DNA from: Raillietiella orientalis
Taxonomy: Eukaryota
Assembly (NCBI GenBank): GCA_036172245.1
Contig: JAYWIR010000039.1
Span: 1,922,001-1,986,000, forward strand
Reading direction: 5' to 3'
DNA length: 64,000 bases
The position numbers were made by a program, and so were the translations under genes. Below the pieces are notes generated by a model. That model saw only the letters and a list, made by a program, of their open reading frames with translations. It searched no databases and was not told where the DNA came from. Positions 23,531-64,000 of the stretch are shown one piece after another (position 1 is the stretch's first letter; the number at the start of each line of letters is the position of its first letter).

Positions 23531-23922
23531 GCAAATAGCATTTCCAAATCTTCTGTTGGATTCGGAAAAGCGAGAGGACTTGCCTGGGAAGTATAGTTGC
23601 AAAACTCCAGGACTCCTCCTTCGAAGGTGATGACAGAAAGCTGGAAAAGTTGAGAGCTTCCGGCCAAGTGAAAGGATTTTTCGTTGTAATGGCAGCATTG
23701 CTCGCCTGTTTTGGTCGATCGACTCAAAACGAGGGTCGTGTTCGAGGCTTTCTATACGCCACATTGGTCTGTGTAGCGGCGAAAATTCCCAACGGAAGGA
23801 AGGCGTTGTGACATCTTCGGTCTTGGAATGGATGCGGATTTCTCCTTCACAGAACTTCTTATCGCATCCTCACCGCAATGCGGATAGGGTGGGGTGAATT
23901 CAAAGTGTTTGCTCATTTGCAG

Positions 23923-24440
23923 CTCCCATTGAATACCTTCAGTACTTCCTAGAGGCCACAGGTATGATCATATCCTTCGGCTGGATGAACAGCGTTATGT
24001 CGGTTCTAAATACCAACCTGGTACACGCGATGTGCGTGAGGCCTACCCCTGAAGCGGGGGCGTTGTGCCTGACTGCCATGCCCAACATGGCCGACGTTGG
24101 TTTCTTGATTGACGCGACTGCTGATACTTCCTTGAGCAACAGTGCAGCAGCAAATTGTATGAACGATGCCTTTATCATCCCTTGCGGTGGTGCTAGGGCT
24201 GCTGTTCTTGCAGCCAATGCAATGTGCACACAAGAGCGTTTCTGCGGGGCTTAGGTTGAATGCTGTGACTGCCCAGGGAGAGGGAACTCCAGTGTGGAGT
24301 AAGAGGACGCTTCGAGTAGGTCTGCATAGTGATGTCGTGCACTTTCAGCTGCTGTGCTTCAAATCAAAACCAACAGCGCTGTCGCACAGATTGGCAGGAA
24401 CGCAGGGTTCAACCTCATCTATACTCAAGTGCCTCCGTGA
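23923..24440 (+). pseudogene. CUB-domain gene paralog E: last two exons only, pseudogene
   Basis: Exons 23923-24298 and 24349-24440 are homologous to exons 6-7 of the gene at 37.5-41.7 kb. A 1-nt insertion turns TGG into TAG-G at about 24252. Flanking intron and 3' flank (to about 24720) are also homologous; 5' exons are absent. Confidence 0.85.
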
Positions 24441-25479
24441 TCTGCTGGTGTCTCGTTTTGGAAAGAAAAGTTCGCTGTGTACTTTGCATGAGCTTTCATG
24501 GAGCGGTGTCTGTTGCCATCAATGGTCTCCAAGGATAGGTGCGTTCAACAGCATGCAATCTGCGTAGTACTCATGCTGCGTGCTCATGCATGCGGACGAG
24601 GCAGTCTTGGAAGTCGAAAACAATTATTTTGTTTCCGAGATGTTGCGATGGCATGCGGGGTCATCAAAAGCTGAGGAAACCTCTTGGCTGGCGCGACAGG
24701 ATGAAGCCTACGGAAAGACTGGAGGTTCTTACCACACCATGTTTCCTTAGTGATGCTCCGAAGATTGTAGGACTTTGGTAATTCACGACTCTTCCAAGAC
24801 CCTCTTAGAATAGCAAAGAACAAGAAAGACTGCAAGACGGTGGAATAACGATACCAGGGTAAAATCATTATCATCAGAGAATTCTGTTCTGGAAACGGAG
24901 GAAAACACCCGGTGCAATCTAGGAAGAAGATCAGGGGACAAGCTTAGCTTTCCGTTTCTCCATTCCCTGCCTCCATTTATCCTCCTCGGTTACCTTGGAG
25001 AGCTGATCCTGCAGCAAACCCGCAGTATGCGGATCGTCCACACTCGGTTAAGGACACCAATGGTAGGTCCCAAATTCTCCTTGATGAAGACCTGCGAGAC
25101 ATGCAGACCGGAAGGCGCGTACACTGAAAGGTCGGACGGACGACAAGCCGCCGTATGGACGAGAATTCCCGAAAGACCCCTCGTTTCTTTCTGCCTTCCC
25201 TTCAGGCGAAAAGCGTCACAGAGATTCCCGACATCGTCGAAAAGGCTGACACCATGTTTGCGGGAACGGTGAAGTGAGCGAGGGACAAGGACGGTGGTTG
25301 TTCTTGTTGGAACCGCAATGCAGCGTCAGCGGGTCGCAGGTCACCATCCCTCTGGACGACAGGAAGAGCGAATCCGTCATGCAAATACCCTTACCCCGGA
25401 TTACGGGAGCCGTCACGGAAGGCTGGAAGATACGAGCCTCGCAGGAGGAAAAGAAAAAATGAGGACAAAAGTTAGGAAC

Positions 25480-26290
25480 AGGAAGCTCGTTTCTCTCCCA
25501 TTCCGCCATCGAAGTGGACGCGGGCAGGTACAGGGTTATCACGGCGACAGACTTCGATGGACAGCCGTCCCCGTTGCGACGCGACACCTGCCACCGCCTT
25601 TGCCAGCCCGGCAACCTCCGGCGTTGTCTTTGCGAGCACGCGAGTGGTATGCTCCGCGCATCCGCCACCGGCCCGACGCCCCCGTTGCCATGATCGCCGT
25701 ACTTCGTCAGGGACACCCCGTCGTTGTCGCAATTGGGCGCCACGGTCGCGAGAGCCCCGCGTACCAGTCCTCCTGTTCCTCCGCATTCCGCGCACCGCCA
25801 CCTTTCCCGCATGCCTGTATTGGACCACGAACGCGCTGACCTTCATTACGCTCACCTGGCAGCCTCCTCCAGCCTCGACACCTGAGGTGCGTTGACAATA
25901 TACGTACTGTTGGGAGCGATAATACGGTTGCACGTGAAAACCACTAGGATCCAACAGAAGGGAGCGAAAGGATGGAGCGACCAGTCTTCTGGCGCAACAT
26001 ACTTGTGCAGCAGACGCCGAATACGAAGGCGCACCTGCGCGCGAAGTGCCTTTGCGAATGACGCGGTCCCGGTGACAGAGAAGGAGGTGGTCCGAAGGTC
26101 TCCCACGAGGTATTTTTTATGCTGCAGGCGCACGATGGCCAGCAGCGAACCTGAGGGACAGGAAGGATACTCGTGACTGTGGTGAGACCGGCGCTCGGTG
26201 GCGAGGGTGTGAAACTTGCGAGGGCGGCTGCCTGACGATATTAGACATGGGGTGTGCGCCACAAGGGAAAGGGGAAGGGAGTCGAGATGC
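25480..26290 (-). pseudogene. Diverged CUB-domain gene paralog F (exons 1-5 remnant), frameshifted
   Basis: Exon 26003-26150: SLLAIVRLQ...(fs)...RCAFVFGVCCT. Exon 25815-25943: VVFTCNRIIAPNSTYIVNAP(fs)GGCQVSVMKVSAFVVQYR. Then NCDNDGVSLT...SIPLAC and VAVITLYL. Same exon order as gene B; exon lengths 148 and 129 are each one base off frame. Confidence 0.65.
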
Positions 26291-31300: not shown

Positions 31301-31668
31301 CACAAAGCCTTTTTTGTTTTTTATTTCGTGCCTGTTCATTGTCTGGTTGGACATAGTCCGTGAGAAGCTGTGGTTACGGGTAATGCAGCCTCGTCCGTTC
31401 AATCGAGTTTCAAAGAGTGGGGACAACCTCCACTTATGACCATCTTCGTATTGTTTTCCTGGGATCAAAGAGAGACCCTGAAGTAGGAAAGCGATACTGG
31501 AATTGGAAAATTAGTAGATTTTTGAAGGCTATTAAGGACTCGAGTGGAATGCGCATAGCACTGGAGGCACCTTAGGCGAAGATCATGTTCAGCATGTAGG
31601 AAACGCGAATGGACGGGAGTCGGGTTCTCTGTTGACAGAAGGCAAAATACATGGAGACATCGAATCGA

Positions 31669-34600
31669 GCGGACAAGAAAGAGATTCTTCGTGCTGACCG
31701 AGGCGCGAGCCAAATCCAAATTCCTCTGCACGAATCGCGATAAGAGGGGGGCGTTGATTCGAGTGGTGGAGTGCTTCCACGTAATCAGACTTGCTGACAC
31801 GCATAGGCTGGTCATCAGGAAGCCCACCCGGCGAAATCGGCTCTGTGGACCACTGAACGTTGACGAGTATACACAGTTCTGCAATGCATTGATGTGTCGG
31901 TGCCAAAGGTCCTGGATCAACATCGTGAAAACATTTTCGCTGCTGAAAAGAAAAAAAATATATTTCTCTTGGAGAAGGCTGGGATTTTTCGTTTTTCACA
32001 AGCATGAACGAAATGCGAGGACGGTTGCTGCAACTTAGTGTGGTCGTTTTCCGATAGGCGGGTGGAGGCTGCTCCGGAAGACAAAAAATTACCAACGTCG
32101 TCATCCATTTACGAGTGGGCGACCTAGTAGTTTGCCCCATCGGCGGTGAGGTTACCGCGTATGCATGCTGTCCCACAGCGGCAACGAATTGCGACCATCG
32201 CAAACGCCTAACACGGAGGAATGGGATAACAAAACCAGGGTGTCGGAGTGACCAGGAGCTCTGCTGACCTGCGTTAATTCTCGCAAGGCGTGGAGGTCTC
32301 CTCTTCGTTAGAAAATCGGCACACTTTCATGACGTCGAAATTGAACCGATAAGGAACGACAAGGATCTCAGTGGACTGCAGCGGGGGACACAAGGCAAAA
32401 GAGAAAGACAAAAAAGACAGGAATGCAAAAGGATTGAGCTTCGAATTCGAGCCACAATAGGTGCGTTGAAAGATCGTTTGTCAAAGGCAGAACAAGAGCA
32501 ACATCGCGTGATGTCTGGGTGCATTGGAATCTTCCATTTGCTTCAACGTGTGATGGGCTGACAATTTCAAGGTTTACATGCTATTTCTTCACCATCAGAA
32601 TCGGCACAGCAAGAAAACTGAGTGTTCGGTGTTCATCATCGCGAAGGTGGAAAATTGCAAATGTGATTCGGACCGCTCAAAGGGATGAAGGGAGCGAATT
32701 TGAAAGCTGCGAAAAAAGGAGAAGCGGTTGCCTGTGAAAGTATCCAAAAGGAAAAGAAGAAGAGAAAGAGGAAGTGCAGAAACACATGTGGAATGCGTCA
32801 GCACGACGTTTTCACAGCTTCTGATGCTGCACGCGTATACGGCCATCGAAATGCCTATCGATGCGAAATCAAAAATCGTACGCCGAAATCGAAAGCTCCC
32901 CTCGAATGCACGGGAATCCCTGCAAGGGGGGTCGTTGAAGCAGCTTTCCTGGCGATTCGGTTACAGCACTGAGAACACCTCGAATGCCGTTCACAAATGA
33001 GCACCCATCGAGTCTTTCAGTTGTTATGTCGCTCCTTAACGCCGCCCTCCATGGACTGCCTCGGACGTCCTTCTCGAGAATGCTTTGAAGTGCACGTCTC
33101 CCATGGCAAGTGGAGTGCAGTGGAAGTTGGTTACGTCGAAGGTGAAGTTGCCTTGAGGGAAAGCAGTGCCGTAGCTGGGATGGTGCAGTTCGTATCTCTA
33201 TATATGAGAAAGGATTTGGGATTCACAAATGACAAGACGAGCGCCGATTGCAGACGGTACGGCCGTTGAACATCTGAGAATCGCCGCAGTGCCTCAGACA
33301 TGGTAACTCGAAAGAAGAGCGGACATTACTGAAGAGTCGCCTGAGAGCAGAGTTGATGGCGGTAGCAATTGCTATGCGAAAGGGGGAACATTTCGGGTGA
33401 CGGTTTTGTTTGGTGCCAACAGATATAGACGAACCAATACTTTTTCCAGGGACGCGTGTGTGTGTCACCCTATATAGCACTTCTCATTCGAATTGGCTGT
33501 CGAAAACAAAGAAAAAGTGAGGTCGATCGTATGATGCCGTCGAAGAACAGTCTGGAGATCCTTAGAAATCTCAAAAAAAGGTTTCCGCACTCAAGAATGG
33601 TGGGAACCATTTCTAGCAGTCCACCTTAACGAGTCGTTCCGAAGGATCAGTGAGATGTGAATCGAATGAAATGCCTATTTGTAACACATGGTCTGCATCT
33701 AGAAAACTAATGGGTTCTTCCACGTGCTGACTCATGGTACGGGCATGAAGAAACTGCAACATATGCTTGGCTTTTTCGAGGAATGGCAGTGGGGTTATAC
33801 GAAACGGAAAAGGAGGAGGACGTTCTACAGCCCCTTCCTCCAAGAACGAAGAAAGGAAGAGGGACTTCTAGGCAGGCTGCAGCTTTCTTCGTTTGGTATG
33901 AGGACGGAGCTACGCATTGCGCGACACCTCAACTCTGCGGGTCAGATATTCGTGCAATGACCCCTGTAAAATGCAGTAAATCGATGTGCAAACATGATCC
34001 TGGCAGAAGACTCAAGTTCAGCTACCGGGTCGTCATTTCGTTAGCTACAAATGATGACATCTCAAGTAATCCAGTCCGTTCTCATCCCTTTCTGTGGTTA
34101 TACAAGAAATGGAGCAAGTCAGAACGGAATACCAGACCCGTGCAATTTCCAAACGCCAATGTCTTAGGTTTCAGGTTTGCCACTCACATCGCCCTCTGAC
34201 CTCTTTCGGTCGTTTCCCCTCGCTTCCCGCTTTTTAATTGACTTTTGGTGTTCACGGAAGTTCAAGGGATTGTACAAAGCTATCGAACCTTCGGCGGGGG
34301 GGCGTAACGAAAACGTGGCGGCCTCCCGTCCTACTAAATGCGAGTTTCTACTCTTCCCCGGTGAAAGTGTCCCCGCGAGCAAAGATTCAGCTGTTGGACT
34401 ATCTCCCATGCCAGGTGCATCGACCGCAATTCTCACCCGACCTCGCGAAGAACTCTGACCAATGGCATCCATGCTTCCTCCTAGTTGACATCCAGAGACA
34501 CTGGAAGATCGCTGCTAAACAAAGGCTTCTTCTCATATTGCAAAAACGAAGACAAAGTATTCTAAACATGCACTTGACCTCATCCTATTCCGTTCCTGAA

Positions 34601-34945
34601 GCCAAAAAAGATTCCTTTTTTTTAAACAAAATTCTCTATTTGAAGAGAGCATTCCTCGCCACGGGAGCACCACTATGAGAGGTTGTCGTCACAGCTGCTC
34701 AGAATACGACAAGAATCCAAAGGATCCGCATATCTCTCGAGATGTCTCCCTGGATGGCAGGAATCTTCTTCTTGTTGGTCTTGCCGGGCGAAGCAGCAAA
34801 CACTATCTCAAGACACCAATCTCGTTAGTAACGAATCTGCCCGCAGACCGCTGCGTGTTTTCGCTTGAAGCCATGTGAAACGCACACGCATCCATGCACA
34901 CATCTACCTACCTGCCCTCCCAACCACGCGGTCACAGTCACCCAA
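31669..34945 (+). repeat. 3.3-kb direct segmental duplication, copy 1 (copy 2 = 45311-48587, offset 13642)
   Basis: ORF-track translations recur at a constant +13642 offset with only a handful of substitutions. Diverged homology extends to about 31340 on the left and about 35100 on the right. Confidence 0.97.
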
Positions 34946-36934
34946 AATCAACATCAACACACACATTGACAACTGCCACACCAAACGAATCGACTTGGGA
35001 GAGCTGCAGTGGCACACAAACCAAGAAAAGAAAAAAAAAGAACGAAAGACATAGGAGCCGAACACCTCTGAGATGTCCTTCTTCCCGAGTGTACCTTGCT
35101 TTCCACTTGTTTCTCCCCGATCCTTCCCTCTGCATGCGGGAAACGTATGACCAACTCATTCGGCGATCGAAACCATTCCTGTTGAAAGCATCCCTGAAAG
35201 CACACCAACTGAATGCGTGCAATTGCAAATTCGCAGACAGTGTGAAGCGATGCCACCAAATGACAATTTCTTCGACGGGCACGATTTTCGTGGCAAACGC
35301 AAATGGACTTTCGGCATCACGAGAGAGTACTCATCATTTCGTCATTCTCTTCAGGATCACTGATGAATGTAGTGCGGATACAAAACTCGCCTTGCTTCGC
35401 GAACTCGCGCAACGGGACGTGCCTTACTGCAGGAGAGTGCAGGAATGCCGGCGGTATGAGGAATGGGCAATGTGCCCTGGGAATCGGCGTATGCTGCATA
35501 GGTAAGCCACGAAATGATCACATATGGAAAATGGTCAAACTTCCAAAGTGATACTTGGATGCGGGCGAAGTGCAAGAGTAAACAATACCTACTTCGAGAA
35601 CACGACGGACATCCTGACGACCGGAGGGACATGCCAAGCGTCGGTCCAGAAACTGAGCTCGCGTATCCAGCAATTCAGGTGAGAAAGGGGGAACTGTTCG
35701 AACCCATAGGGGGATCTCTGAGCAAAGGATGACCTTATGGATTCGGTTCCATTCAAATGTTGAGTACCGAGCTGAAAGAGCTCGTAGGCAACTCTATGAG
35801 GCCTGAATCCGCTGCGTAATGGAGAAGGACGCGAGTCTCGCTCGTTGGGAACGAGCTGCTCGTCTTCTCACAGCGGGAGGGAGCGCACAGATCCTGGAAT
35901 GGTTGCCCCTCACTATCGAATCAAGATGGTGTTCAGTGCTTGAGAGGTTTGGTAGATGTGAGCAGCAACTTATCCTTGGATATTCGTTTCACCCTCGATG
36001 GTTCCCAACTGTCAGCCAAATGCGGCTGTGCCGATGACCTGCTCAACTCCTGGCATGACTTTTGAGGTGAAGGAGCCAAATTGCGGTTTCGCCTGAGACC
36101 CCTCCCGGCAACACGATCCGAAAGGCCGTCCACCGATGACGGTCAGCCGACACAGTGGAAAACACGAACGTTTAGGCGGTTGGGGAAATCGTGTCCACGG
36201 GAAGCACGTCCAGTTACATGCCATGTCAGGGACTTTTCCTCTGCAGGTTCATGACCGGCCTCATGCTGTAGGGCGAAGTGCTACTTGAGGATACTGTTGC
36301 GTGCCGCAACAGCTTCCGTGGAGGTACGCATGCTGGAAAGGAATTTTTCCACTCAAGTGGAAGGACAGTGCATAAATGGGAGTCTTCGTGCAGTTCTGCT
36401 CCTGTGAGAATCGCGCACGAACGTCCCTGAAATTTGAGCCGGCAAAACGCGAAAATGAAGGATAAGTTGAGCTCCAGCACAGAAATACTCGTACTTGGGA
36501 ACCATAGGGAAACAGAACACGTGTAAAGGAAAGCAAGTGCAAAGGGAAGCACATACTGCGGCGGAAGACACCGCAGGAGGCTTTTTTCTGGGAGAAACGT
36601 TGCGTGCTCTAAGAACAGTCACTCTCAGGAGCTGCCTGAAGGGTTCCCGGCTGATCGCATTTCTTCCTCACGAAATTCCCTCTCGCACCCGCTCTGTGGG
36701 CTTCCTGCTATGTTGTCGAAGGCTACTCCACGGTGGCAAAGAAGGGGCTCAGAGGAGAAATCGTTTCTCAAGCACCTGTGAATTTCAGGATCGAACTACA
36801 GCCACTGACTCTTCGATCAGCAGTCGCTGCAACCGGGCAGTGCGACCCGGATTCGCTGGTGATAACGCCCATGGGCAGCGGATCTTTTCAGAGCATCCCA
36901 TCGTCGATTTGCGGACCGAATCCGAACAATCACC
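34742..36934 (+). pseudogene. CUB-domain gene copy A: 5' half only (exons 1-4), own signal-peptide exon
   Basis: Exon 1 34742-34823 MSPWMAGIFFLLVLPGEAANTISRHQS; exon 2 35355-35501 (NSPC...NGTCLTAGEC...GQCALGIGVCCI); exon 3 from 36619; exon 4 to 36934 (GQCDPDSL...ICGPNPNNH). No exons 5-7 downstream on this strand. Confidence 0.8.
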
Positions 36935-37056
36935 GTAAGTAACTCTTTTCGACACCGGAAAGTGGCAATAAGCAGCACGTCCCCTATTCGTGGGAGACCG
37001 TAATCATAACATGCCGCTGAATGCACTACGCCTTCCAAACAGCGCCGCCAATCTTT
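34991..37056 (+). repeat. 2.07-kb inverted repeat, left arm (right arm = 39397-41462)
   Basis: Positions map as x to 76453-x. All ORF translations are mirrored identically and no difference was found in the stretches compared by eye. Confidence 0.97.
35560..36550 (+). mobile_element. Decayed L1/Tx1 RT remnant inside intron 2 of the CUB gene (also in copies B and C)
   Basis: Ordered degenerate RT motifs: LLREHDGHPDDRRDMPSV...PYGF, ILEWLPLTIESRWCSV, CADDLL (YADD-like), EGAKL. Confidence 0.4.
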
Positions 37057-37521
37057 AGAGCTGCGAAACTCTTGAAGAACGTAAGTCCTGCAGCCGTTTG
37101 CTGCTGCATAAAGAGAAATGCCACTCTTTTTTCTTTTGGAGAGCCACCGACCACTTCATGAGCACCATTTGCGATTTCGCTTCCCGACCAATGCCTTGCT
37201 CTTTAAATGCTGCTGTTTGCTATCAAATTCTGGGAGCACGATTCAGAAAATCTACTAAGGCGAGTCGATCAGGCCTTTCCGTTCGCTTCATCCCGCCGCA
37301 CCATCCACGAGGTTTTCTCAGCTCTTCCTAGATCACGCAAGCAGCAGCAACATTGCAGCGGCAAATAATTCATTTTCCACCTTAAAGTGCCTACCTAAAC
37401 CAAACACATGAGCATCCAGAAGCATCATCACGCCCATTGCATGTGCTTCATAGTAATTATCCTTGGAAACCTCTGATGACAACAGCCACATTCCCATGAG
37501 AGCCCATGTAAGGTACAAACT

Positions 37522-37527
37522 TTTATT
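37522..37527 (-). promoter_or_regulatory. Putative polyadenylation signal of CUB gene B
   Basis: AATAAA on the minus strand about 22 nt after the TGA; lost in paralog E. Confidence 0.5.
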
Positions 37528-37549
37528 TCCTATACGAGATACCAGCAGT

Positions 37550-40500
37550 TCACGAAGACTCTTGAGTGTACACGAGGTTGAAACCAGCGTTCATCGCCAT
37601 GGTCATCACAACGTCGTTTGTTTTGATGTGCAGCATAAATGGAAATACGGCAGCTGAAAGTGCAAATCACTACAGAAACCTACACTGAACGTCATCTTAC
37701 TGCACACTTCAGATGCTGCATCCGTCGCAGTTGCAGCATTTAGCCAAGCCCCGCAGAAACGCTCTTGTGTGCACATTGGGCTGGCCATAAGTACATTAGC
37801 CCTAGTATCACCGCAAGGGATGATAAAGGCATCGTTCATACAATTTGCAAATGCACTGTTGCTCAAGGAAGTCGCTGCAGTCGCGTCAATCGAGAAACCA
37901 ACTGTAACTGCGTTGGGCATTGCATTCAGACACAACGCCCTAGCTGTAGGGGTACGCCTCACGCACATCGCGTATTCCAGGTTGGTATTCAAAACCGACA
38001 TAACGCTGTTCATCCAGCCAAAGGAGGTGATCGTACCTGTGGCCTCAAGGAAGTACTGAAGGCATCCAATGGGAGCTGGAAATAAACAAACACTTTGAAT
38101 ACTCTGCACCCTATTCGCGTCGTTTTGGGGATACGAAAGGAAATTCCGTGAAAGAGAAATCGGCATGCATTTCAAAATATAATTTGCCACAAACTCTTCA
38201 TTTCTTTCAAAATGTCTGCTGTTACACAGATAAATTCAGCGTAAAGAAAGCTGCAAAACCAACCCTGGTTTTGGAGTCGACCGACCTCAGCAGAAACCAA
38301 AAGGCGGGAAATGCCTCCTTCAGAACAGAAAACCCCAAACGTCACCCCAAACCCCACCCGATCGCATTCCTAAATCCAAGGCGAGTCCCCGAGAAACTTG
38401 CTGCTCTTTCCATGACAGCATTCTTTTTTCTCCACTACGGCATGCACAAGGTATCTTTGCTCCGCACTTCCCATTCATTTGAACATTCCCTGTCTTGCGG
38501 TGAGGTGGTACGCGAAAAGGGACATTCCCGGTGGCCACTCCAACTACACAACCTCCTTCCGCGCGCGGAACAGGAAGGGAAGCGCTTTCGTTGCTTCGGT
38601 AGCAACTTCGACGAAGCATGCAATGAGACAGCTCCATCCACTTACCCAGATACGCGGATCTGGATTCAATCTGCAACACGCGGATGGACCAGGATCTTGC
38701 TTCCCCAGCCATCGCAGCAGCAACCGTGATGACGAGCGCAACTCCCGTAGTTGCAGCGTCCATCCTCACGTACACTAAAATAGAAAAGGACGGGCTTCAC
38801 TATCGCAGCTGGAAAGGGAGTCCTGGGTCTCCTGACTGTACTTCAGTCAAGCAGTTTCGGCAAGTAACCCGAGCAACTTCACGGATATCTGTCCACGACC
38901 ACTGCACTGCTGGTTCATATCAGCGGACCCCGGCCGGCATGCAACGTAGGCAAAGGCGGCAGTGGCATTCACTTGTCAGAATTCACTTCAGGACTCTAAC
39001 AGATTCACAAAGGCAGGAAGGAGTATCGAGGGTGCAGAAATCCTCCGAAAGTGTTTCCCCAACCTCCATCTCTTCCCCTAATTCACTCCAGATAGCTAGC
39101 CACCTCAGCACGAGATCAGCGCCGCGGATGAACTAACATTTCCCGAGACGTTGGGCTCCGATTTCATCAGGACTGTTCCTTGGAGTTGCCCCTCGCAACG
39201 TAATCAATCCCTGCCCTCTTATGTCAGCAAGAGCAGGCAGCAAATAACAGCACGGCAAGAGAAACGCGTTGCTCGGGAAGCGACATCGCAACGCGCGCGC
39301 GTGAGGTGGACGGCGGATCTCCGAAAGAGTCGCATTGGCCTTTGTGGTGCCGCACACACAAAGCGAACAGACGATCTTCAAGAGTCATACTGCGCCAAAG
39401 ATTGGCGGCGCTGTTTGGAAGGCGTAGTGCATTCAGCGGCATGTTATGATTACGGTCTCCCACGAATAGGGGACGTGCTGCTTATTGCCACTTTCCGGTG
39501 TCGAAAAGAGTTACTTACGGTGATTGTTCGGATTCGGTCCGCAAATCGACGATGGGATGCTCTGAAAAGATCCGCTGCCCATGGGCGTTATCACCAGCGA
39601 ATCCGGGTCGCACTGCCCGGTTGCAGCGACTGCTGATCGAAGAGTCAGTGGCTGTAGTTCGATCCTGAAATTCACAGGTGCTTGAGAAACGATTTCTCCT
39701 CTGAGCCCCTTCTTTGCCACCGTGGAGTAGCCTTCGACAACATAGCAGGAAGCCCACAGAGCGGGTGCGAGAGGGAATTTCGTGAGGAAGAAATGCGATC
39801 AGCCGGGAACCCTTCAGGCAGCTCCTGAGAGTGACTGTTCTTAGAGCACGCAACGTTTCTCCCAGAAAAAAGCCTCCTGCGGTGTCTTCCGCCGCAGTAT
39901 GTGCTTCCCTTTGCACTTGCTTTCCTTTACACGTGTTCTGTTTCCCTATGGTTCCCAAGTACGAGTATTTCTGTGCTGGAGCTCAACTTATCCTTCATTT
40001 TCGCGTTTTGCCGGCTCAAATTTCAGGGACGTTCGTGCGCGATTCTCACAGGAGCAGAACTGCACGAAGACTCCCATTTATGCACTGTCCTTCCACTTGA
40101 GTGGAAAAATTCCTTTCCAGCATGCGTACCTCCACGGAAGCTGTTGCGGCACGCAACAGTATCCTCAAGTAGCACTTCGCCCTACAGCATGAGGCCGGTC
40201 ATGAACCTGCAGAGGAAAAGTCCCTGACATGGCATGTAACTGGACGTGCTTCCCGTGGACACGATTTCCCCAACCGCCTAAACGTTCGTGTTTTCCACTG
40301 TGTCGGCTGACCGTCATCGGTGGACGGCCTTTCGGATCGTGTTGCCGGGAGGGGTCTCAGGCGAAACCGCAATTTGGCTCCTTCACCTCAAAAGTCATGC
40401 CAGGAGTTGAGCAGGTCATCGGCACAGCCGCATTTGGCTGACAGTTGGGAACCATCGAGGGTGAAACGAATATCCAAGGATAAGTTGCTGCTCACATCTA

Positions 40501-41702
40501 CCAAACCTCTCAAGCACTGAACACCATCTTGATTCGATAGTGAGGGGCAACCATTCCAGGATCTGTGCGCTCCCTCCCGCTGTGAGAAGACGAGCAGCTC
40601 GTTCCCAACGAGCGAGACTCGCGTCCTTCTCCATTACGCAGCGGATTCAGGCCTCATAGAGTTGCCTACGAGCTCTTTCAGCTCGGTACTCAACATTTGA
40701 ATGGAACCGAATCCATAAGGTCATCCTTTGCTCAGAGATCCCCCTATGGGTTCGAACAGTTCCCCCTTTCTCACCTGAATTGCTGGATACGCGAGCTCAG
40801 TTTCTGGACCGACGCTTGGCATGTCCCTCCGGTCGTCAGGATGTCCGTCGTGTTCTCGAAGTAGGTATTGTTTACTCTTGCACTTCGCCCGCATCCAAGT
40901 ATCACTTTGGAAGTTTGACCATTTTCCATATGTGATCATTTCGTGGCTTACCTATGCAGCATACGCCGATTCCCAGGGCACATTGCCCATTCCTCATACC
41001 GCCGGCATTCCTGCACTCTCCTGCAGTAAGGCACGTCCCGTTGCGCGAGTTCGCGAAGCAAGGCGAGTTTTGTATCCGCACTACATTCATCAGTGATCCT
41101 GAAGAGAATGACGAAATGATGAGTACTCTCTCGTGATGCCGAAAGTCCATTTGCGTTTGCCACGAAAATCGTGCCCGTCGAAGAAATTGTCATTTGGTGG
41201 CATCGCTTCACACTGTCTGCGAATTTGCAATTGCACGCATTCAGTTGGTGTGCTTTCAGGGATGCTTTCAACAGGAATGGTTTCGATCGCCGAATGAGTT
41301 GGTCATACGTTTCCCGCATGCAGAGGGAAGGATCGGGGAGAAACAAGTGGAAAGCAAGGTACACTCGGGAAGAAGGACATCTCAGAGGTGTTCGGCTCCT
41401 ATGTCTTTCGTTCTTTTTTTTTCTTTTCTTGGTTTGTGTGCCACTGCAGCTCTCCCAAGTCGGTTCGTGTGGTGTCGCGGTTGTGAATGTGTGTGTGGAT
41501 GTGTGGGTGAGAGGTGTGTGTGAGTAGGTGTATGTATGGATGGATGCGTGTGATTGTGCGTTCGGAATAGCGTCAAGAGAAATCGCGCAGAGGTCTTCGG
41601 GAGCACTCCTTACTTACGAGATTGGTGTCTTGAGGTTGTGTTTGCTGCTTCTCCCTGCATGGCCTGAAACATGAGGAAGATTCCGACAATCCACGCACAC
41701 AT
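37550..41702 (-). CDS. Secreted two-CUB-domain protein of the arthropod Cys-rich-N-terminus type, copy B (7 exons, about 371 aa; exon 3 probably frameshifted, so possibly a pseudogene)
   Basis: Exons 41618-41702 (signal peptide MCAWIVGIFLMFQAMQG), 40952-41098, 39721-39834, 39519-39680, 38646-38774 (LYVRMD...RSWSIRVLQI), 37701-38075 (APIGCLQYF...TGTITSF...YAMCVR...ERFCG) and 37550-37653 (PFMLHIKTN...GFNLVYTQ). Total 1116 nt in frame only with a weak GTGGCA donor. Confidence 0.7.
39397..41462 (-). repeat. 2.07-kb inverted repeat, right arm
   Basis: Reverse complement of 34991-37056. Confidence 0.97.
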
Positions 41703-44209: not shown

Positions 44210-45300
44210 ATGTGGGCTACGTAGCAACGAACCTACGCTTTCTGGGAAAGCAGCTGCACTTATCCTTTGAGTCTCTCGAAGAAGGTCGCCGTCTGACTCT
44301 TCGAAATAGACGAGTCCGCATGTAACGGGAAAACGCGAAGCTCAAGACTTTGCCTATCTGTTGGGAACGCGGTCAGTGGACGCACCCCAAACACTGTTCA
44401 GAGGTTCCTTGCTGGTATGGACGAAGCAGGTCAAGGCAGCGGGGGACGGCGCTCTGGAGGGAGGAGTCAACGAAGAAGAGTACTCTTGCCGTTGAAGCAG
44501 CCTGTGCGTGCCAACGGAGCGACTACGGATGTGCCGCTGATTCCCGGTTGGTTCGAGCAAGATTGCGAACGGAAGCCGTCATCAGGGAACGGATCAGGGA
44601 TACGTAGCAACGAACCGAGGTGAGGATGCAACAAGCCACTCACGCCCATCAGGGAATTTTGCATTTTCCAGGTGCGCTGCCGACCTTTCCAAGGAAGGAC
44701 ATGCCCGCTTCGTTTCGCGTTCTCTTTCGTGCCTGCTCCTTCGCTGATTGAGCTGGAGACTTGAAGCTTCAGAAGGAAAGGTTGTCCACTCTTTTGTTTG
44801 AGCGCGGCCGTCCTGGAGAATCCCACAAACAGGCGAGTTGACAAACCTCGAGATATACCCAAACCACGCAGTGAGAGTGAGCAAATCCCCTTCTTCGCAA
44901 ATGGGATCTTTTGGTGGCTCCTCCCTACCTGGAGTAGGCAGCCTTCTCGTGGCAACGTTGTTCTCAAGTGCTTCCAAATCTTCTGGTGCAACCGTCGCGT
45001 CAACAAAATGGGAATAGACAGTGAGAAACTGTGGTTCCGGAGAATGCAGTCTCGTCCGTGCCATCGAGTTTCAAAGAGTAGGGACAACCTCCACTTGTGG
45101 CCATCTTTGGACTGTCCTCTCGCGTTCAAACAGCTACTCTGAGGAAGGAAAGCGAACATGGAATTCGAAAATTGCCAGAAATTTGACGGCTGCCAAGGCT
45201 CGAGTGGGACGCGCATAACACTGCAGGCAGCTTAGGCATGTAGGAAACGCGAAAGGACGAGTCGGGTTCTCTCCGGACTGAAGGAAAAAAACATGGGGAC
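44210..45300 (+). mobile_element. Decayed Tx1/L1 ORF2 3' fragment (a homologous 3' piece also lies at about 31340-31670)
   Basis: NLRFLGKQL (YLG-like), KLKTLPICWER, EKLWFRRMQSRPC...NLHLW...CP (zinc-knuckle region). Confidence 0.5.
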
Positions 45301-45310
45301 ATGGGATCGG

Positions 45311-48300
45311 GCGGACAAGAAAGAGATTCTTCGTGCTGACCGAGGCGCGAGCCAAATCCAAATTCCTCTGCACGAATCGCGATAAGAGGGGGGCGTTGAT
45401 TCGAGTGGTGGAGTGCTTCCACGTAATCAGACTTGCTGACACGCATAGGCTGGTCATCAGGAAGTCCACCCGGCGAAATCGGCTCTGTGAACCACTGAAC
45501 GTTGACGAGTATACACAGTTCTGCAATGCATTGATGTGTCGGTGCCAAAGGTCCTGGATCAACAACGTGAAAACATTTTCGCTGCTGAAAAGAAAAAAAA
45601 TATATTTCTCTTGGAGAAGGCTGGGATTTTTCGTTTTTCACAAGCATGAACGAAATGCGAGGACGGTTGCTGCAACTTAGTGTGGTCGTTTTCCGATAGG
45701 CGGGTGGAGGCTGCTCCGGAAGACAAAAAATTACCAACGTCGTCATCCATTTACGAGTGGGCGACCTAGTAGTTTGCCCCATCGGCGGTGAGGTTACCGC
45801 GTATGCATGCTGTCCCACAGCGGCAACGAATTGCGACCATCGCAAACGCCTAACACGGAGGAATGGGATAACAAAACCAGGGTGTCGGAGTGACCAGGAG
45901 CTCTGCTGACCTGCGTTAATTCTCGCAAGGCGTGGAGGTCTCCTCTTCGTTAGAAAATCGGCACACTTTCATGACGTCGAAATTGAACCGATAAGGAACG
46001 ACAAGGATCTCAGTGGACTGCAGCGGGGGACACAAGGCAAAAGAGAAAGACAAAAAAGACAGGAATGCAAAAGGATTGAGCTTCGAATTCGAGCCACAAT
46101 AGGTGCGTTGAAAGATCGTTTGTCAAAGGCAGAACAAGAGCAACATCGCGTGATGTCTGGGTGCATTGGAATCTTCCATTTGCTTCAACGTGTGATGGGC
46201 TGACAATTTCAAGGTTTACATGCTATTTCTTCACCATCAGAATCGGCACAGCAAGAAAACTGAGTGTTCGGTGTTCATCATCGCGAAGGTGGAAAATTGC
46301 AAATGTGATTCGGACCGCTCAAAGGGATGAAGGGAGCGAATTTGAAAGCTGCGAAAAAAGGAGAAGCGGTTGCCTGTGAAAGTATCCAAAAGGAAAAGAA
46401 GAAGAGAAAGAGGAAGTGCAGAAACACATGTGGAATGCGTCAGCACGACGTTTTCACAGCTTCTGATGCTGCACGCGTATACGGCCATCGAAATGCCTAT
46501 CGATGCGAAATCAAAAATCGTACGCCGAAATCGAAAGCTCCCCTCGAATGCACGGGAATCCCTGCAAGGGGGGTCGTTGAAGCAGCTTTCCTGGCGATTC
46601 GGTTACAGCACTGAGAACACCTCGAATGCCGTTCACAAATGAGCACCCATCGAGTCTTTCAGTTGTTATGTCGCTCCTTAACGCCGCCCTCCATGGACTG
46701 CCTCGGACGTCCTTCTCGAGAATGCTTTGAAGTGCACGTCTCCCATGGCAAGTGGAGTGCAGTGGAAGTTGGTTACGTCGAAGGTGAAGTTGCCTTGAGG
46801 GAAAGCAGTGCCGTAGCTGGGATGGTGCAGTTCGTATCTCTACATATGAGAAAGGATTTGGGATTCACGAATGACAAGACGAGCGCCGATTGCAGACGGT
46901 ACGGCCGTTGAACATCTGAGAATCGCCGCAGTGCCTCAGACATGGTAACTCGAAAGAAGAGCGGACATTACTGAAGAGTCGCTTGAGAGCAGAGTTGATG
47001 GCGGTAGCAATTGCTATGCGAAAGGGGGAACATTTCGGGTGACGGTTTTGTTTGGTGCCAACAGATATAGACGAACCAATACTTTTTCCAGGGACGCGTG
47101 TGTGTGTCACCCTATATAGCACTTCTCATTCGAATTGGCTGTCGAAAACAAAGAAAAAGTGAGGTCGATCGTATGATGCCGTCGAAGAACAGTCTGGAGA
47201 TCCTTAGAAATCTCAAAAAAAGGTTTCCGCACTCAAGAATGGTGGGAACCATTTCTAGCAGTCCACCTTAACGAGTCGTTCCGAAGGATCAGTGAGATGT
47301 GAATCGAATGAAATGCCTATTTGTAACACATGGTCTGCATCTAGAAAACTAATGGGTTCTTCCACGTGCTGACTCATGGTACGGGCATGAAGAAACTGCA
47401 ACATATGCTTGGCTTTTTCGAGGAATGGCAGTGGGGTTATACGAAACGGAAAAGGAGGAGGACGTTCTACAGCCCCTTCCTCCAAGAACGAAGAAAGGAA
47501 GAGGGACTCCTAGGCAGGCTGCAGCTTTCTTCGTTTGGTATGAGGACGGAGCTACGCATTGCGCGACACCTCAACTCTGCGGGTCAGATATTCGTGCAAT
47601 GACCCCTGTAAAATGCAGTAAATCGATGTGCAAACATGATCCTGGCAGAAGACTCAAGTTCAGCTACCGGGTCGTCATTTCGTTAGCTACAAATGATGAC
47701 ATCTCAAGTAATCCAGTCCGTTCTCATCCCTTTCTGTGGTTATACAAGAAATGGAGCAAGTCAGAACGGAATACCAGACCCGTGCAATTTCCAAACGCCA
47801 ATGTCTTAGGTTTCAGGTTTGCCACTCACATCGCCCTCTGACCTCTTTCGGTCGTTTCCCCTCGCTTCCCGCTTTTTAATTGACTTTTGGTGTTCACGGA
47901 AGTTCAAGGGATTGTACAAAGCTATCGAACCTTCGGCGGGGGGGCGTAACGAAAACGTGGCGGCCTCCCGTCCTACTAAATGCGAGTTTCTACTCTTCCC
48001 CGGTGAAAGTGTCCCCGCGAGCAAAGATTCAGCTGTTGGACTATCTCCCATGCCAGGTGCATCGACCGCAATTCTCACCCGACCTCGCGAAGAACTCTGA
48101 CCAATGGCATCCATGCTTCCTCCTAGTTGACATCCAGAGACACTGGAAGATCGCTGCTAAACAAAGGCTTCTTCTCATATTGCAAAAACGAAGACAAAGT
48201 ATTCTAAACATGCACTTGACCTCATCCTATTCCGTTCCTGAAGCCAAAAAAGATTCCTTTTTTTTAAACAAAATTCTCTATTTGAAGAGAGCATTCCTCG

Positions 48301-48587
48301 CCACGGGAGCACCACTATGAGAGGTTGTCGTCACAGCTGCTCAGAATACGACAAGAATCCAAAGGATCCGCATATCTCTCGAGATGTCTCCCTGGATGGC
48401 AGGAATCTTCTTCTTGTTGGTCTTGCCGGGCGAAGCAGCAAACACTATCTCAAGACACCAATCTCGTTAGTAACGAATCTGCCCGCAGACCGCTGCGTGT
48501 TTTCGCTTGAAGCCATGTGAAACGCACACGCATCCATGCACACATCTACCTACCTGCCCTCCCAACCACGCGGTCACAGTCACCCAA
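45311..48587 (+). repeat. 3.3-kb direct segmental duplication, copy 2
   Basis: Near-identical to 31669-34945. Confidence 0.97.
48384..48465 (+). pseudogene. CUB-domain gene copy D: orphan exon 1 (A-type signal peptide), truncated in intron 1 at about 48742
   Basis: Matches 34742-34823; homology to intron 1 stops after gtgtaccttgct. Confidence 0.8.
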
Positions 48588-49099
48588 ACTCACACATCAA
48601 CACACACATTCGCAACTGCCACCCCAAACGAATCGACTTGCGAGAGCTGCAGTGGCACACAAACCAAGAAAAGAAAAAAAAGAACGAAAGATATAGGAGC
48701 CGAGCACCTCTGCAATCTCCTTCTTCCCGCGTGTACCTTGCTCACCGGCTTGCCACGCCGATACCACAGCCGCCTTCCGGAGATTCGCTTGATCTCCTGC
48801 GCTTGTTCTGCAGAGATAACTTCCGAGGCGGGTGAGGTAGCCATGGGGATTTGGGCCTGCTCATGCACCTGGGGCACCTGTTGGTCCTCCGCTCCCTCCA
48901 TCCGCTCCGTATCCGAGTGTTTGAGTCTTTCGGGCGAAGTGTCCCGGGATTCTCCTACACTCTTGGCACCCTCGCTTCCGGAAGCCATCTCTTCCCCTTC
49001 GGTGGTGGGAAGGGTCTTCTGCGGTTTGGTGTACTTTGGTCTATCCTTGCTGCTGGGTGCCACGGAGATGAAAGCTGGGTTTGCATTCGAAAATTTCTT

Positions 49100-59394: not shown

Positions 59395-59596
59395 TAATAG
59401 ATCATCCACAGATCTCATTCAGTCAAAGTTCCGAAATCTGTGGCAGCAGTTTTTTTCAGTTCAAATCCATCGAACATCACAAAGTTAATAAAACAATCAA
59501 ACATAAGAATTTTGAATTACAAATTGCAATACATTGCCAATTATAATTTCTACAATGAATTCTACTATGAATCGCTTCAAATCCAGATTACAGGCC

Positions 59597-62500: not shown

Positions 62501-64000
62501 TCATTCGGCGATCGAAACCATTCCTGTTGAAAGCATCCCTGAAAGCACACCAACTGAATGCGTGCAATTGCAAATTCGCAGACAGTGTGAAGCGATGCCA
62601 CCAAATGACAATTTCTTCGACGGGCACGATTTTCGTGGCAAACGCAAATGGACTTTCGGCATCACGAGAGAGTACTCATCATTTCGTCATTCTCTTCAGG
62701 ATCACTGATGAATGTAGTGCGGATACAAAACTCGCCTTGCTTCGCGAACTCGCGCAACGGGACGTGCCTTACTGCAGGAGAGTGCAGGAATGCCGGCGGT
62801 ATGAGGAATGGGCAATGTGCCCTGGGAATCGGCGTATGCTGCATAGGTAAGCCACGAAATGATCACATATGGAAAATGGTCAAACTTCCAAAGTGATACT
62901 TGGATGCGGGCGAAGTGCAAGAGTAAACAATACCTACTTCGAGAACACGACGGACATCCTGACGACCGGAGGGACATGCCAAGCGTCGGTCCAGAAACTG
63001 AACTCGCGTATTCAGCAATTCAGGTGAGGAAGGGGGAACTGTTCGAACCCATAGGGGGATCTCTGAGCAAAGGATGACCTTATGGATTCGGTTCCATTCA
63101 AATGTTGAGTACCGAGCTGAAAGAGCTCGTAGGCAACTCTATGAGGCCTGAATCCGCTGCGTAATGGAGAAGGACGCGAGTCTCGCTCGTTGGGAACGAG
63201 CTGCTCGTCTTCTCACAGCGGGAGGGAGCGCACAGATCCTGGAATGGTTGCCCCTCACTATCGAATCAAGATGGTGTTCAGTGCTTGAGAGGTTTGGTAG
63301 ATGTGAGCAGCAACTTATCCTTGGATATTCATTTCACCCTCGATGGTTCCCAACTGTCAGCCAAATGCGGCTGTGCCGATGACCTGCTCAACTCCTGGCA
63401 TGACTTTTGAGGTGAAGGAGCCAAATTGCGGTTTCGCCTGAGACCCCTCCCGGCAACACGATCCGAAAGGCCGTCCACCGATGACGGTCAGCCGACACAG
63501 TGGAAAACACGAACGTTTAGGCGGTTGGGGAAATCGTGTCCACGGGAAGCACGTCCAGTTACATGCCATGTCAGGGACTTTTCCTCTGCAGGTTCATGAC
63601 CGGCCTCATGCTGTAGGGCGAAGTGCTACTTGAGGATACTGTTGCGTGCCGCAACAGCTTCCGTGGAGGTACGCATGCTGGAAAGGAATTTTTCCACTCA
63701 AGTGGAAGGACAGTGCATAAATGGGAGTCTTCGTGCAGTTCTGCTCCTGTGAGAATCGCGCACGAACGTCCCTGAAATTTGAGCCGGCAAAACGCGAAAA
63801 TGAAGGATAAGTTGAGCTCCAGCACAGAAATACTCGTACTTGGGAACCATAGGGAAACAGAACACGTGTAAAGGAAAGCAAGTGCAAAGGGAAGCACATA
63901 CTGCGGCGGAAGACACCGCAGGAGGCTTTTTTCTGGGAGAAACGTTGCGTGCTCTAAGAACAGTCACTCTCAGGAGCTGCCTGAAGGGTTCCCGGCTGAT
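59597..64000 (+). repeat. >=4.4-kb inverted repeat, right arm
   Basis: Reverse complement of 39798-44201; continues beyond the window. Confidence 0.97.
62095..64000 (+). CDS. CUB-domain gene copy C (B-type signal peptide), exons 1-2 and start of exon 3; continues off the window
   Basis: Exon 1 62095-62179, exon 2 62700-62846, exon 3 from 63964; near-identical to copy B. Confidence 0.7.

What the first reader, a model, noticed from the sequence alone, without database searches (positions are those of the whole stretch)
34742..41702. Two alternative gene 5' halves face one shared 3' half across an inverted repeat: candidate flip-flop promoter/signal-peptide switch
Seen: apparently identical 2.07-kb inverted arms (34991-37056 / 39397-41462) each carry exons 2-4 of the CUB gene. 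Outside the arms lie two different upstream regions and first exons (MSPWMAGIFFLLVLPG vs MCAWIVGIFLMFQAMQG). The 2.34-kb spacer holds the only adjacent exons 5-7 and the poly(A) signal. Inference: one crossover between the arms would invert the spacer and transfer the 3' exons from promoter/leader B to promoter/leader A without losing DNA. Established analogues are bacterial invertible switches and inversion-based mating-type switching in methylotrophic yeasts; I know of no such system for animal CUB genes. Caveats: no recombinase is visible, exon 3 looks frameshifted, and a plain inverted duplication or misassembly gives the same picture.
Basis: partly seen in the sequence, partly recalled or inferred. 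Interest (0 to 1): 0.72.

Follow-up and report, generated by a model that had tools for sequence, protein, structure and literature searches.

The report
Truncated inverted copy facing CUB gene
A complete secreted CUB-type gene lies tail-to-tail with a cut-off, inverted copy of its own first four exons that recombination keeps letter-identical; the middle piece could flip, but nothing shows a purpose-built switch.

Summary
The arms 34991-37056 and 39397-41462 are 2066 bp with 0 mismatches, around a 2340-bp spacer. The right arm plus spacer encode an intact seven-exon, 371-aa animal CUB-family gene, B, on the minus strand. The left arm belongs to a truncated copy, A, with exons 1-4 only. Joining A exons 1-4 to exons 5-7 would give an open 370-aa frame, so the geometric inference is right.

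Nothing supports a programmed switch. No recombinase was found. The perfect core sits inside older homology of about 75% on both sides. Copy D shows that B-type sequence overwrote A. The window also holds further partial or decayed copies: C, D and P.

Best reading: an old inverted partial duplication, palindrome-like and homogenised by recent gene conversion. It may flip passively by homologous recombination in the germline. Spacer orientation and expression could not be tested, because there was no genome, no long reads and no RNA run. Interest is low to moderate.

The parts
34542..34990 (+). Outer flank of copy A: proximal upstream region, exon 1 and the start of intron 1. Old, unconverted homology to B's outer flank (41463-41960).
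   Evidence: Local alignment gives 318 identities of 419 aligned bases plus 51 gap positions.
34742..34823 (+). Copy A exon 1 (A-type leader, 27 codons plus 1 nt, phase 1). Donor is GTTAGT.
   Evidence: Identical in copy D (0 differences over 34500-34900).
34991..37056 (+). Left arm: 2066 bp identical to the reverse complement of 39397-41462. Carries A exons 2-4 (35355-35501, 35549-35678, 36789-36934).
37057..37221 (+). Inner flank on A's side: a diverged remnant of intron 4 (108 of 146 aligned bases identical to B's 39239-39396). A's homology to the gene ends at about 37221.
37057..39396 (.). Spacer, 2340 bp, single copy at high identity within the window.
37522..37527 (-). AATAAA poly(A) signal of gene B, the only one on the minus strand of 36901-39400.
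37550..37653 (-). Gene B exon 7, stop codon included.
37701..38075 (-). Gene B exon 6 (most of the second CUB-like domain).
38646..38774 (-). Gene B exon 5.
39397..41462 (-). Right arm. Carries gene B exons 4, 3 and 2 (39519-39664, 40775-40904, 40952-41098).
41618..41702 (-). Gene B exon 1 (B-type leader). Donor is GTAAGT.
59583..64000 (+). Copy C: B-type upstream region, exon 1 (from 62095) and exons 2-3. It runs off the window end. Against B it shows 9 substitutions and 2 one-base indels over about 4.4 kb.
45014..48742 (+). Copy D: A-type upstream region plus exon 1 (from 48384), 97.5% identical to 31353-35100. Homology stops about 110 bp into the arm.
23674..24766 (+). Block P, 3' half: decayed copy of exons 6-7 and the 3' flank (73% nt identity to 37226-38335). 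It has a stop codon after FCGA and Y in place of the invariant Cys of the GCLQY motif.
25294..26063 (-). Block P, 5' half: decayed, frameshifted relic of exons 2-4, convergent on P's 3' half. The same 47-nt spacing between exons 2 and 3 is kept.
   Evidence: The collinear triple was absent from the reversed and shuffled controls.

Best explanation
A real, evolutionarily old inverted partial duplication. Gene B (minus strand, 41702 to 37550) is an intact seven-exon gene for a secreted protein with an N-terminal Cys-rich module and two CUB-like domains. Copy A (plus strand, 34742 to about 37221) is a truncated paralogue with its own upstream region, exon 1, exons 2-4 and about 290 bp of intron 4. 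A lies tail-to-tail against B's 3' end. Homologous recombination between the inverted copies has recently overwritten 2066 bp of A with B-type sequence (gene conversion). This produced a perfect palindrome-like repeat inside flanks that remain about 25% diverged. As in other palindromes, an occasional crossover in the arms would invert the 2.34-kb spacer in the germline and hand exons 5-7 to A's promoter and leader. That would be a passive by-product of general recombination, not a dedicated switch. Shown here: the anatomy, the intact gene B, the mosaic structure of A, and the absence of a recombinase. Inferred: the conversion mechanism and its direction, the possibility of inversion, and that A is non-functional or only incidentally functional in the arrangement seen.
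For: The arms show 0 mismatches in 2066 bp. Homology continues outside the perfect core at 318/419 (outer side) and 108/146 (inner side) identities. So this is an old duplication with a young homogenised tract, not a fresh duplication or a fold-back chimera.

A is a mosaic. Against copy D it has 0 differences over 34500-34900 and 4 substitutions plus 1 indel over 34901-34990. From 34991 it becomes identical to B and C, while D differs from A=B=C at 7 substitutions plus 1 indel in 110 bp. This points to B-type sequence overwriting A.

B and C differ by 4 substitutions plus 1 indel in 1665 bp of arm, whereas A and B differ at 0 of 2066. The Poisson probability of 0 at the B-C rate is 0.007.

Gene B has an open 371-aa frame and all six introns are GT-AG. 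It aligns collinearly with relatives; the best is P0004, residues 23-369 against 33-372 of 374, 37.6% identity, E 1.7e-62. It keeps 15 of 15 invariant and 19 of 20 near-invariant family columns.

No sense-strand exons 5-7 follow A anywhere in the window. A's exon-1 donor is GTTAGT, against GTAAG or GTGAG at B's six donors. No recombinase or transposase family was found in 199 ORFs.

The locus has other partial or decayed copies (C, D, P), which fits birth-and-death of duplicates.

Precedent from passages read: NAHR within palindrome arms inverts spacers; spacers differ in orientation in about 50% of primate X-palindrome comparisons where orientation could be determined; and 11 of 26 human X palindromes carry spacer genes (PMC8327919). 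IDS and its inverted partial pseudogene IDSP1 recombine to give recurrent inversions (PMC11402328).
Against: No read, transcript or second-genome evidence could be obtained, so the assembly and the single orientation are taken at face value.

Exon 1 of A has stayed open after about 25% divergence. It keeps its ATG, an in-frame 3-nt indel, the same intron phase and a GT donor. Its 34 nt coding the mature N-terminus are 32/34 identical to B, against 146/196 in neighbouring unconverted sequence (post-hoc binomial p = 0.0035). That hints at constraint on A's first exon, which a dead pseudogene would not show. An older conversion tract, or an A-type full-length gene elsewhere in the genome, could also explain it.

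The arm-spacer architecture also appears in the old block P. It has therefore persisted for a long time, which a selected function could explain as well as passive conversion can.
Confidence: 0.6

Rival explanations
1. Assembly or polishing artefact. The truncated copy A, or the perfect identity of its arm, is produced by a mis-join, a chimeric read or homogenising polishing of similar paralogues. Copy C could be a second haplotype of B placed in cis.
For: Three copies (A, B, C) are identical or nearly identical. The B-C divergence of about 0.2% is of the order of allelic differences. No independent data bridge any arm boundary: the single run found gave only 151-238-base contigs lying inside the arm, and none crosses 34990/34991 or 37056/37057.
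Against: The perfect core is embedded in diverged homology on both sides, and A is D-like up to the core edge. A fold-back chimera would end abruptly in non-homologous sequence. A copy-switch error inside the repeat would continue in the sense direction, not into B's 3' flank read antisense. The window has no gaps. The old block P carries the same junction, with homology ending at 37226 against 37221, so the arm-spacer junction predates the assembly.
Confidence: 0.12
2. Functional flip-flop. The spacer inverts recurrently, as a balanced germline polymorphism or, less likely, somatically. The shared 3' half is then driven alternately by promoter/leader A or B, and selection keeps both 5' modules usable.
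For: The flipped product would be an open 370-aa frame. Exon 1 of A is intact, and its mature-N-terminus part is 32/34 identical to B against a 74.5% background. The two upstream regions are essentially unalignable beyond about 200 bp (58/121 and 67/118 identities in a forced alignment), so regulation could differ. The perfect arms show that recombination between them is active.
Against: There is no recombinase and no evidence of a second orientation. A's donor is weaker (GTTAGT). The two mature proteins would differ by a single residue after leader removal, read by eye from the translations, so only regulation could change. Truncated copies D and P show that partial duplicates arise and decay here without any function. 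No comparable switch in an animal gene came up in two paper searches. That absence rests on those searches only.
Confidence: 0.08
3. RNA-level regulator. Transcription from A's promoter runs antisense over B's exons 7-5 (a convergent pair). Alternatively, read-through across both arms gives a hairpin with a 2066-bp perfect stem. Either would yield siRNAs against B, C and relatives, as hpRNA loci do in Drosophila.
For: A has an upstream region and an intact first exon, but no sense 3' exons. On the plus strand the first AATAAA after A's exon 4 is at 38081, inside B's exon 6/intron 5 boundary region, so A transcripts would overlap B antisense. [quoted passage not shown] The ESM Atlas lists the family's nearest clusters as mostly arthropod.
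Against: No RNA or small-RNA data exist. A hairpin needs read-through of 6.7 kb past that AATAAA. The arms are genomic copies with introns. The organism is not identified, so an RNAi pathway of the Drosophila type is assumed.
Confidence: 0.1
4. Copy A is a working gene for a short secreted protein: leader, Cys-rich module and an incomplete first CUB-like domain (168 residues, plus 2 if intron 4 is retained). Conversion from B keeps it intact.
For: A exons 1-4 have an open frame and canonical acceptors. A stop follows 2 codons into intron 4, and a plus-strand AATAAA lies at 38081.
Against: The first CUB-like domain would lack the strands coded by exon 5 (family profile positions 174-215). Among the 24 near-full-length relatives chosen for the alignment, the domain is never cut there. 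Shorter database entries exist, but they may be fragments.
Confidence: 0.1

Closest known systems
Primate sex-chromosome palindromes (arm-to-arm gene conversion, spacer inversion by NAHR). PMC8327919, passages read.
   Same: Inverted arms kept near-identical by conversion. A unique spacer that can carry a gene. Crossover within the arms would invert the spacer. No dedicated recombinase.
   Different: The arms here are 2.07 kb, against 8-140 kb. The arms carry only the 5' half of a gene and the spacer carries its 3' half, so an inversion would re-pair gene halves rather than merely re-orient whole genes. Both orientations have not been observed here.
IDS / IDSP1 (Hunter syndrome): a gene with a nearby inverted partial pseudogene that gives recurrent inversions. 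PMC11402328, passages read.
   Same: A partial copy of some exons and introns of a gene lies close by in the opposite orientation, with high-identity tracts that recombine.
   Different: The IDS-IDSP1 inversion destroys the gene. Here the partial copy includes an upstream region and an open first exon, so the inverted allele would still encode a full-length protein. The distance is 2.3 kb, against 19.7 kb.
Inversion-based mating-type switching in methylotrophic yeasts (recalled; no paper read here).
   Same: Kilobase-scale inverted repeats flank an invertible segment. Switching relies on general homologous recombination.
   Different: In the yeasts both orientations are observed and are inducible, and the effect is by position-dependent silencing. 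None of this was tested or seen here, and no animal example is known to me.
Bacterial invertible promoter switches such as fim and hin (recalled).
   Same: Inversion changes which promoter is connected to a coding region.
   Different: Those switches need a site-specific recombinase encoded nearby and short inverted sites. Neither is present here.
Drosophila hpRNA loci. PMC10317233, passages read.
   Same: An inverted repeat derived from a protein-coding gene family and lying beside its potential targets.
   Different: No evidence of a single transcript across both arms or of siRNAs. The arms include introns, and the 2.3-kb loop contains functional exons.

Membership tests
Animal CUB-domain secreted proteins (label PF26080 CUB_animal from the ESM Atlas; PF00431 CUB) | Collinear full-length similarity to family members | tested here: met
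   Gene B residues 23-369 align to 33-372 of P0004 (374 aa) at 37.6% identity, E 1.7e-62. The 40 alignment rows printed had E-values from 1.7e-62 to 3.6e-07; most were long collinear matches and four were short secondary segments of P0001/P0002.
Animal CUB-domain secreted proteins (label PF26080 CUB_animal from the ESM Atlas; PF00431 CUB) | Conserved cysteine/glycine framework | tested here: met
   15 of 15 invariant and 19 of 20 near-invariant columns of the 24-protein alignment are kept in gene B.
Animal CUB-domain secreted proteins (label PF26080 CUB_animal from the ESM Atlas; PF00431 CUB) | Match to a curated CUB model | tested here: inconclusive
   Single-exon ORFs of the window gave no CUB hit: 0 of 57 and 0 of 35. 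The spliced protein could not be submitted to the library. Relatives matched PF00431 in 3 of 10 and 6 of 24. A family profile hit cubilin 3kq4 at E 8.5e-4. The local Pfam copy returned no PF26080 match for P0004; that label comes from the Atlas only.
Palindrome with arm-to-arm gene conversion | Two inverted arms of near-perfect identity around a unique spacer | tested here: met
   2066 bp with 0 mismatches and a 2340-bp spacer.
Palindrome with arm-to-arm gene conversion | Arm identity exceeds that of adjoining homologous sequence and of other paralogues (evidence of conversion) | tested here: met
   Flanks are 76% and 74% identical. A switches from D-like to B-like at about 34991. The B-C arm shows 4 substitutions in 1665 bp against 0 of 2066 for A-B.
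Palindrome with arm-to-arm gene conversion | Spacer found in both orientations among individuals or related species | not testable with these tools
   No genome is held. The only run found gave short contigs that bridge no arm boundary.
Site-specific invertible DNA switch (fim/hin type) | Recombinase encoded in or beside the invertible segment | tested here: not met
   No recombinase, integrase or transposase family in 57 + 107 + 35 ORFs.
Site-specific invertible DNA switch (fim/hin type) | Short inverted recombination sites | tested here: not met
   The arms are 2066-bp copies of exons 2-4 and their introns.
Homologous-recombination flip-flop (yeast mating-type kind) | Kilobase inverted repeats flanking a segment whose orientation decides which of two alternatives is expressed | tested here: inconclusive
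   The geometry fits, and the flipped frame would be open. Expression of either state is unknown.
Homologous-recombination flip-flop (yeast mating-type kind) | Both orientations present and interconverting | not testable with these tools
   No spanning reads.
hpRNA / endo-siRNA locus | Inverted repeat derived from a target gene | tested here: met
   The arms are copies of exons 2-4 of gene B.
hpRNA / endo-siRNA locus | One primary transcript through both arms, and Dicer-dependent small RNAs | not testable with these tools
   No RNA data could be laid. A plus-strand AATAAA at 38081 lies between the arms.

The most novel reading that the evidence does not exclude
The spacer is a recurrently inverting segment, so the species carries two interconvertible alleles of one gene. 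In one allele, exons 5-7 are driven by the A-type promoter and leader; in the other, by the B-type. The long survival of an open A-type first exon, with its conserved mature-N-terminus coding part, would then reflect use in the flipped allele. This would be a recombination-based promoter swap for an animal secreted-protein gene. The convergent truncated copy might also act as an antisense or hairpin source in whichever state it is idle.
Probability: 0.15. Interest if true: 0.6.

Novelty: new member of a known kind. Interest (0 to 1): 0.3.

Why it matters
If both orientations exist, this would be a compact natural case in which inverted-repeat recombination re-pairs one 3' gene half with two different promoters and leaders. 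That kind of promoter swap is known for yeast mating types and bacterial phase variation, but not, to my knowledge, for animal genes. As it stands, the locus is a clean small-scale example of palindrome behaviour outside sex chromosomes: an old inverted partial duplicate, a sharply bounded and very recent conversion tract, and neighbouring copies (D, C, P) that let the direction and relative age of events be read from one haplotype. For annotation it shows two things. Copy A should not be called a complete gene. The apparent frameshift in exon 3 is a 47-nt intron.

Tried and rejected
- Whole genome: none is held.
- Earlier notes of this scan: nothing by place, words or sequence. One search failed on a word limit and was resent.
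- Word-indexed protein search with exon 6, longer proteins: 870 candidates, none at E <= 0.001.
The family name therefore rests on the Atlas label and on Pfam CUB hits in relatives.
- Sequencing runs: 1 run listed, DNA, holding 0.09 of the words; no RNA holder listed.
- Reads laid on 31300-39396: 10 contigs laid (8 listed pieces, 32-238 bases on the stretch), 5 of them at 99% likeness or more. No joints were reported and no contig crosses an arm boundary. This gives no information on junctions, orientation, copy number or expression.
- Metagenome scan with the 36 bases at the inner end of the arm: 0 matches.
- Nucleotide similarity between block P's right part and the arm: none above shuffled controls (score 18 against a shuffle maximum of 23). 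The relic is seen only at the protein and profile level.
- Inverted or direct repeats inside 18-31.5 kb that would make P a palindrome of its own: none.
- The ORFs at 57.5-58.9 kb reminded me of a hAT-type transposase (recalled). Pfam gave nothing above noise for the 7 ORFs tested, so I make no claim.
- Rejected: a fold-back or amplification chimera, because diverged homology continues beyond both ends of the perfect core.
- Rejected: a simple fresh inverted duplication, for the same reason and because A is D-like up to the core edge.
Full report
OBSERVATION

The inverted repeat is real and cannot be chance. The repeat finder reports arms 34951-37082 and 39371-41502 (2132 nt, 99%). A base-by-base comparison found 14 mismatches, all within 40 bases of the left end or 26 bases of the right end. 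The window contains no N.

GENE MODEL

I read the minus strand of 37000-41800 and located the boundaries. This gave seven exons:
- exon 1: 41702-41618
- exon 2: 41098-40952
- exon 3: 40904-40775
- exon 4: 39664-39519
- exon 5: 38774-38646
- exon 6: 38075-37701
- exon 7: 37653-37550

All six introns are GT-AG, and the spliced frame is open for 371 codons.

An exhaustive HMMER search with the exon-6 ORF found 103 relatives at E <= 0.001, the best at 5.6e-24. The spliced protein aligns collinearly with near-full-length relatives. The best is P0004 at 37.6% identity, E 1.7e-62, covering 23-369 of 371. Gene B keeps 15 of 15 invariant and 19 of 20 near-invariant columns of a 24-protein alignment.

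The family is CUB-related:
- Pfam CUB matched 3 of 10 and 6 of 24 relatives.
- A family profile hit cubilin 3kq4 at E 8.5e-4.
- The ESM Atlas labels the nearest clusters "CUB_animal" PF26080, mostly arthropod.
- The window's single exons gave no Pfam hit, and the spliced protein could not be submitted.

Gene B therefore looks like a working gene.

COPY A

On the plus strand, exon 1 (34742-34823) is followed by exons 2-4 in the left arm (35355-35501, 35549-35678, 36789-36934). After exon 4 the copy keeps about 290 bp of intron 4. Of these, 165 bp (37057-37221) lie outside the perfect core and are 108/146 identical to B's intron 4. It then abuts B's 3' flank read antisense. No sense-strand exons 5-7 follow A anywhere in the window, by tblastn with gene B, by tblastn with 103 relatives, or by a family HMM over all ORFs of 15 aa or more.

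A's exon-1 donor is GTTAGT; B's is GTAAGT. Joining A exons 1-4 to exons 5-7 in a script gives 1113 nt with a single terminal stop.

WHY THE ARMS ARE IDENTICAL

Homology does not stop at the edges of the perfect core. Outside it, 34542-34990 aligns to 41463-41960 at 318/419 identities, and the inner flanks align at 108/146. The duplication is therefore old (about 25% divergence), and the 2066-bp identity is a young tract laid over it.

Copy D (45014-48742) is 97.5% identical to 31353-35100, and it gives the direction of the event:
- Over 34500-34900, A and D have 0 differences.
- Over 34901-34990, they have 4 substitutions and 1 indel.
- From 34991, A equals B and C, while D differs from them at 7 substitutions and 1 indel in 110 bp.

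A is therefore a mosaic whose core was overwritten by B-type sequence.

Copy C (59583-64000, plus strand, B-type upstream region and leader, running off the window) differs from B by 4 substitutions and 1 indel within 1665 bp of arm. A and B differ at 0 of 2066 (P = 0.007 at the B-C rate). The A-B homogenisation is therefore younger than the B-C duplication.

This pattern argues against a fold-back or amplification chimera, and against a copy-switch misassembly. I still leave about 0.12 for an artefact, because no independent read bridges any boundary.

AN OLDER COPY OF THE SAME ARCHITECTURE (BLOCK P)

Positions 23674-24766 (plus strand) are 73% identical to 37226-38335, which covers exons 6-7 and the 3' flank. 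This copy has a stop codon after FCGA and has lost an invariant cysteine.

Convergent on it, on the minus strand at 26063-25294, lie recognisable but frameshifted relics of exons 2, 3 and 4. Three collinear profile hits (E 0.6, 2.5, 0.62) keep the same 47-nt gap between exons 2 and 3. No such collinear triple occurred in a reversed control or in 10 local shuffles of 51 kb each.

P's homology to the spacer ends at 37226, within 5 bp of where A's homology ends (37221). The junction between the gene's 3' flank and an inverted 5' half is therefore ancient, and it was itself duplicated. Lacking a partner arm, P has decayed. A, which has one, is kept identical. This is what arm-to-arm conversion predicts. 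It does not reveal past orientations, because a crossover inside identical arms leaves every junction unchanged.

SWITCH OR NOT

No recombinase, integrase or transposase family was found in 57 ORFs of the left arm and spacer, 35 further ORFs of the arms and flanks, or 107 ORFs of 110 aa or more (three shorter) elsewhere in the window. The only Pfam hits were LMF1 exons and an F5/8-type-C fragment. The arms are gene copies, not short sites. These results fail the tests for a site-specific switch.

A recombination-driven flip, as in primate palindromes, needs no such enzyme. In passages I read, NAHR within arms inverts spacers. About half of the primate X-palindrome spacers whose orientation could be determined differ in orientation between species, and 11 of 26 human X palindromes carry spacer genes (PMC8327919). 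IDS and its inverted partial pseudogene IDSP1 give recurrent inversions (PMC11402328). For human "inversion toggling" I saw only the search listing and the start of the abstract of 10.1101/2021.12.20.472354. The yeast mating-type and bacterial analogues are recalled, not read.

A passive germline inversion polymorphism is plausible here. A regulated switch is not indicated.

EVIDENCE THAT CUTS THE OTHER WAY

After about 25% divergence, A's first exon is still open. It keeps its ATG, an in-frame 3-nt indel, the same intron phase and a GT donor. The 34 nt coding the mature N-terminus are 32/34 identical to B, against 146/196 in adjacent unconverted sequence (post-hoc p = 0.0035). The upstream regions are essentially unalignable beyond about 200 bp.

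This could mean that A's first exon is used: in a flipped allele, in a truncated product, or in an unseen full-length A-type gene elsewhere. It could also reflect an older conversion tract. It is the main reason I keep 0.15 for the novel reading.

OTHER READINGS

On the plus strand, the only AATAAA between A's start and B's start is at 38081. Transcripts from A would therefore run antisense over B's exons 7 and 6. Read-through across both arms would fold into a 2-kb perfect hairpin. [quoted passage not shown] This is untestable here.

WHAT COULD NOT BE DONE

- No genome is held.
- One DNA run with a small share of the words was found, and no RNA holder was listed.
- Its short contigs lie inside the arm and in the upstream region and bridge nothing.
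- A metagenome scan with the arm's inner end found nothing.

VERDICT

The most likely reading (0.6) is an old inverted partial duplicate, palindrome-like, homogenised by recent gene conversion and liable to passive inversion. It is a new member of a known kind. Interest is 0.3.

Noticed in passing
window 23674-24766 (+) and 25294-26063 (-): Block P is a decayed older copy of the same 'gene 3' half facing an inverted 5' half' arrangement. Exons 6-7 are 73% identical at the nucleotide level, with a stop codon and a lost invariant Cys. Relics of exons 2-4 are frameshifted. The 47-nt intron spacing is kept. Homology to the spacer ends within 5 bp of copy A's end.
   Followed up: yes
window 34764, 48406, 62120 (+): The three plus-strand exon-1 copies (A, D, C) lie 13642 and 13714 bp apart. 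This suggests an underlying tandem unit of about 13.7 kb that was later rearranged. The stretch 48742-59583 matches nothing else in the window.
   Followed up: partly
window 45014-48742 (+): Copy D is the A-type upstream region plus exon 1 only. It breaks off about 110 bp into the arm sequence at about 48742, and what follows is unrelated. It preserves what looks like the pre-conversion A-type sequence.
   Followed up: yes
window 59583-64000 (+): Copy C is a near-identical inverted duplicate of B's upstream region and exons 1-3. Across about 4.4 kb it has 9 substitutions and 2 one-base indels, and one substitution changes Ser to Asn in exon 3. It continues past the window end, so whether it is complete is unknown. 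Together with B it forms a second, larger inverted pair around 44.2-59.6 kb.
   Followed up: partly
window 9023-10363 (+) and 4563-5036 (+): Exons of a lipase-maturation-factor gene (Pfam LMF1 at 1.4e-16 and LMF1_C at 2.2e-22) and a weak F5/8 type C fragment. These are ordinary animal genes upstream of the cluster.
   Followed up: no
window 57555-58900 (-): Several AT-rich ORFs reminded me of a hAT-type transposase (recalled resemblance only). Pfam gave no significant match for the 7 ORFs tested.
   Followed up: partly
window 32240 and 32381: One contig of run X1 ends in 9-base loose ends that look like sequencing-adapter remnants. This is a data artefact of that run, not a feature of the window.
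   Followed up: no
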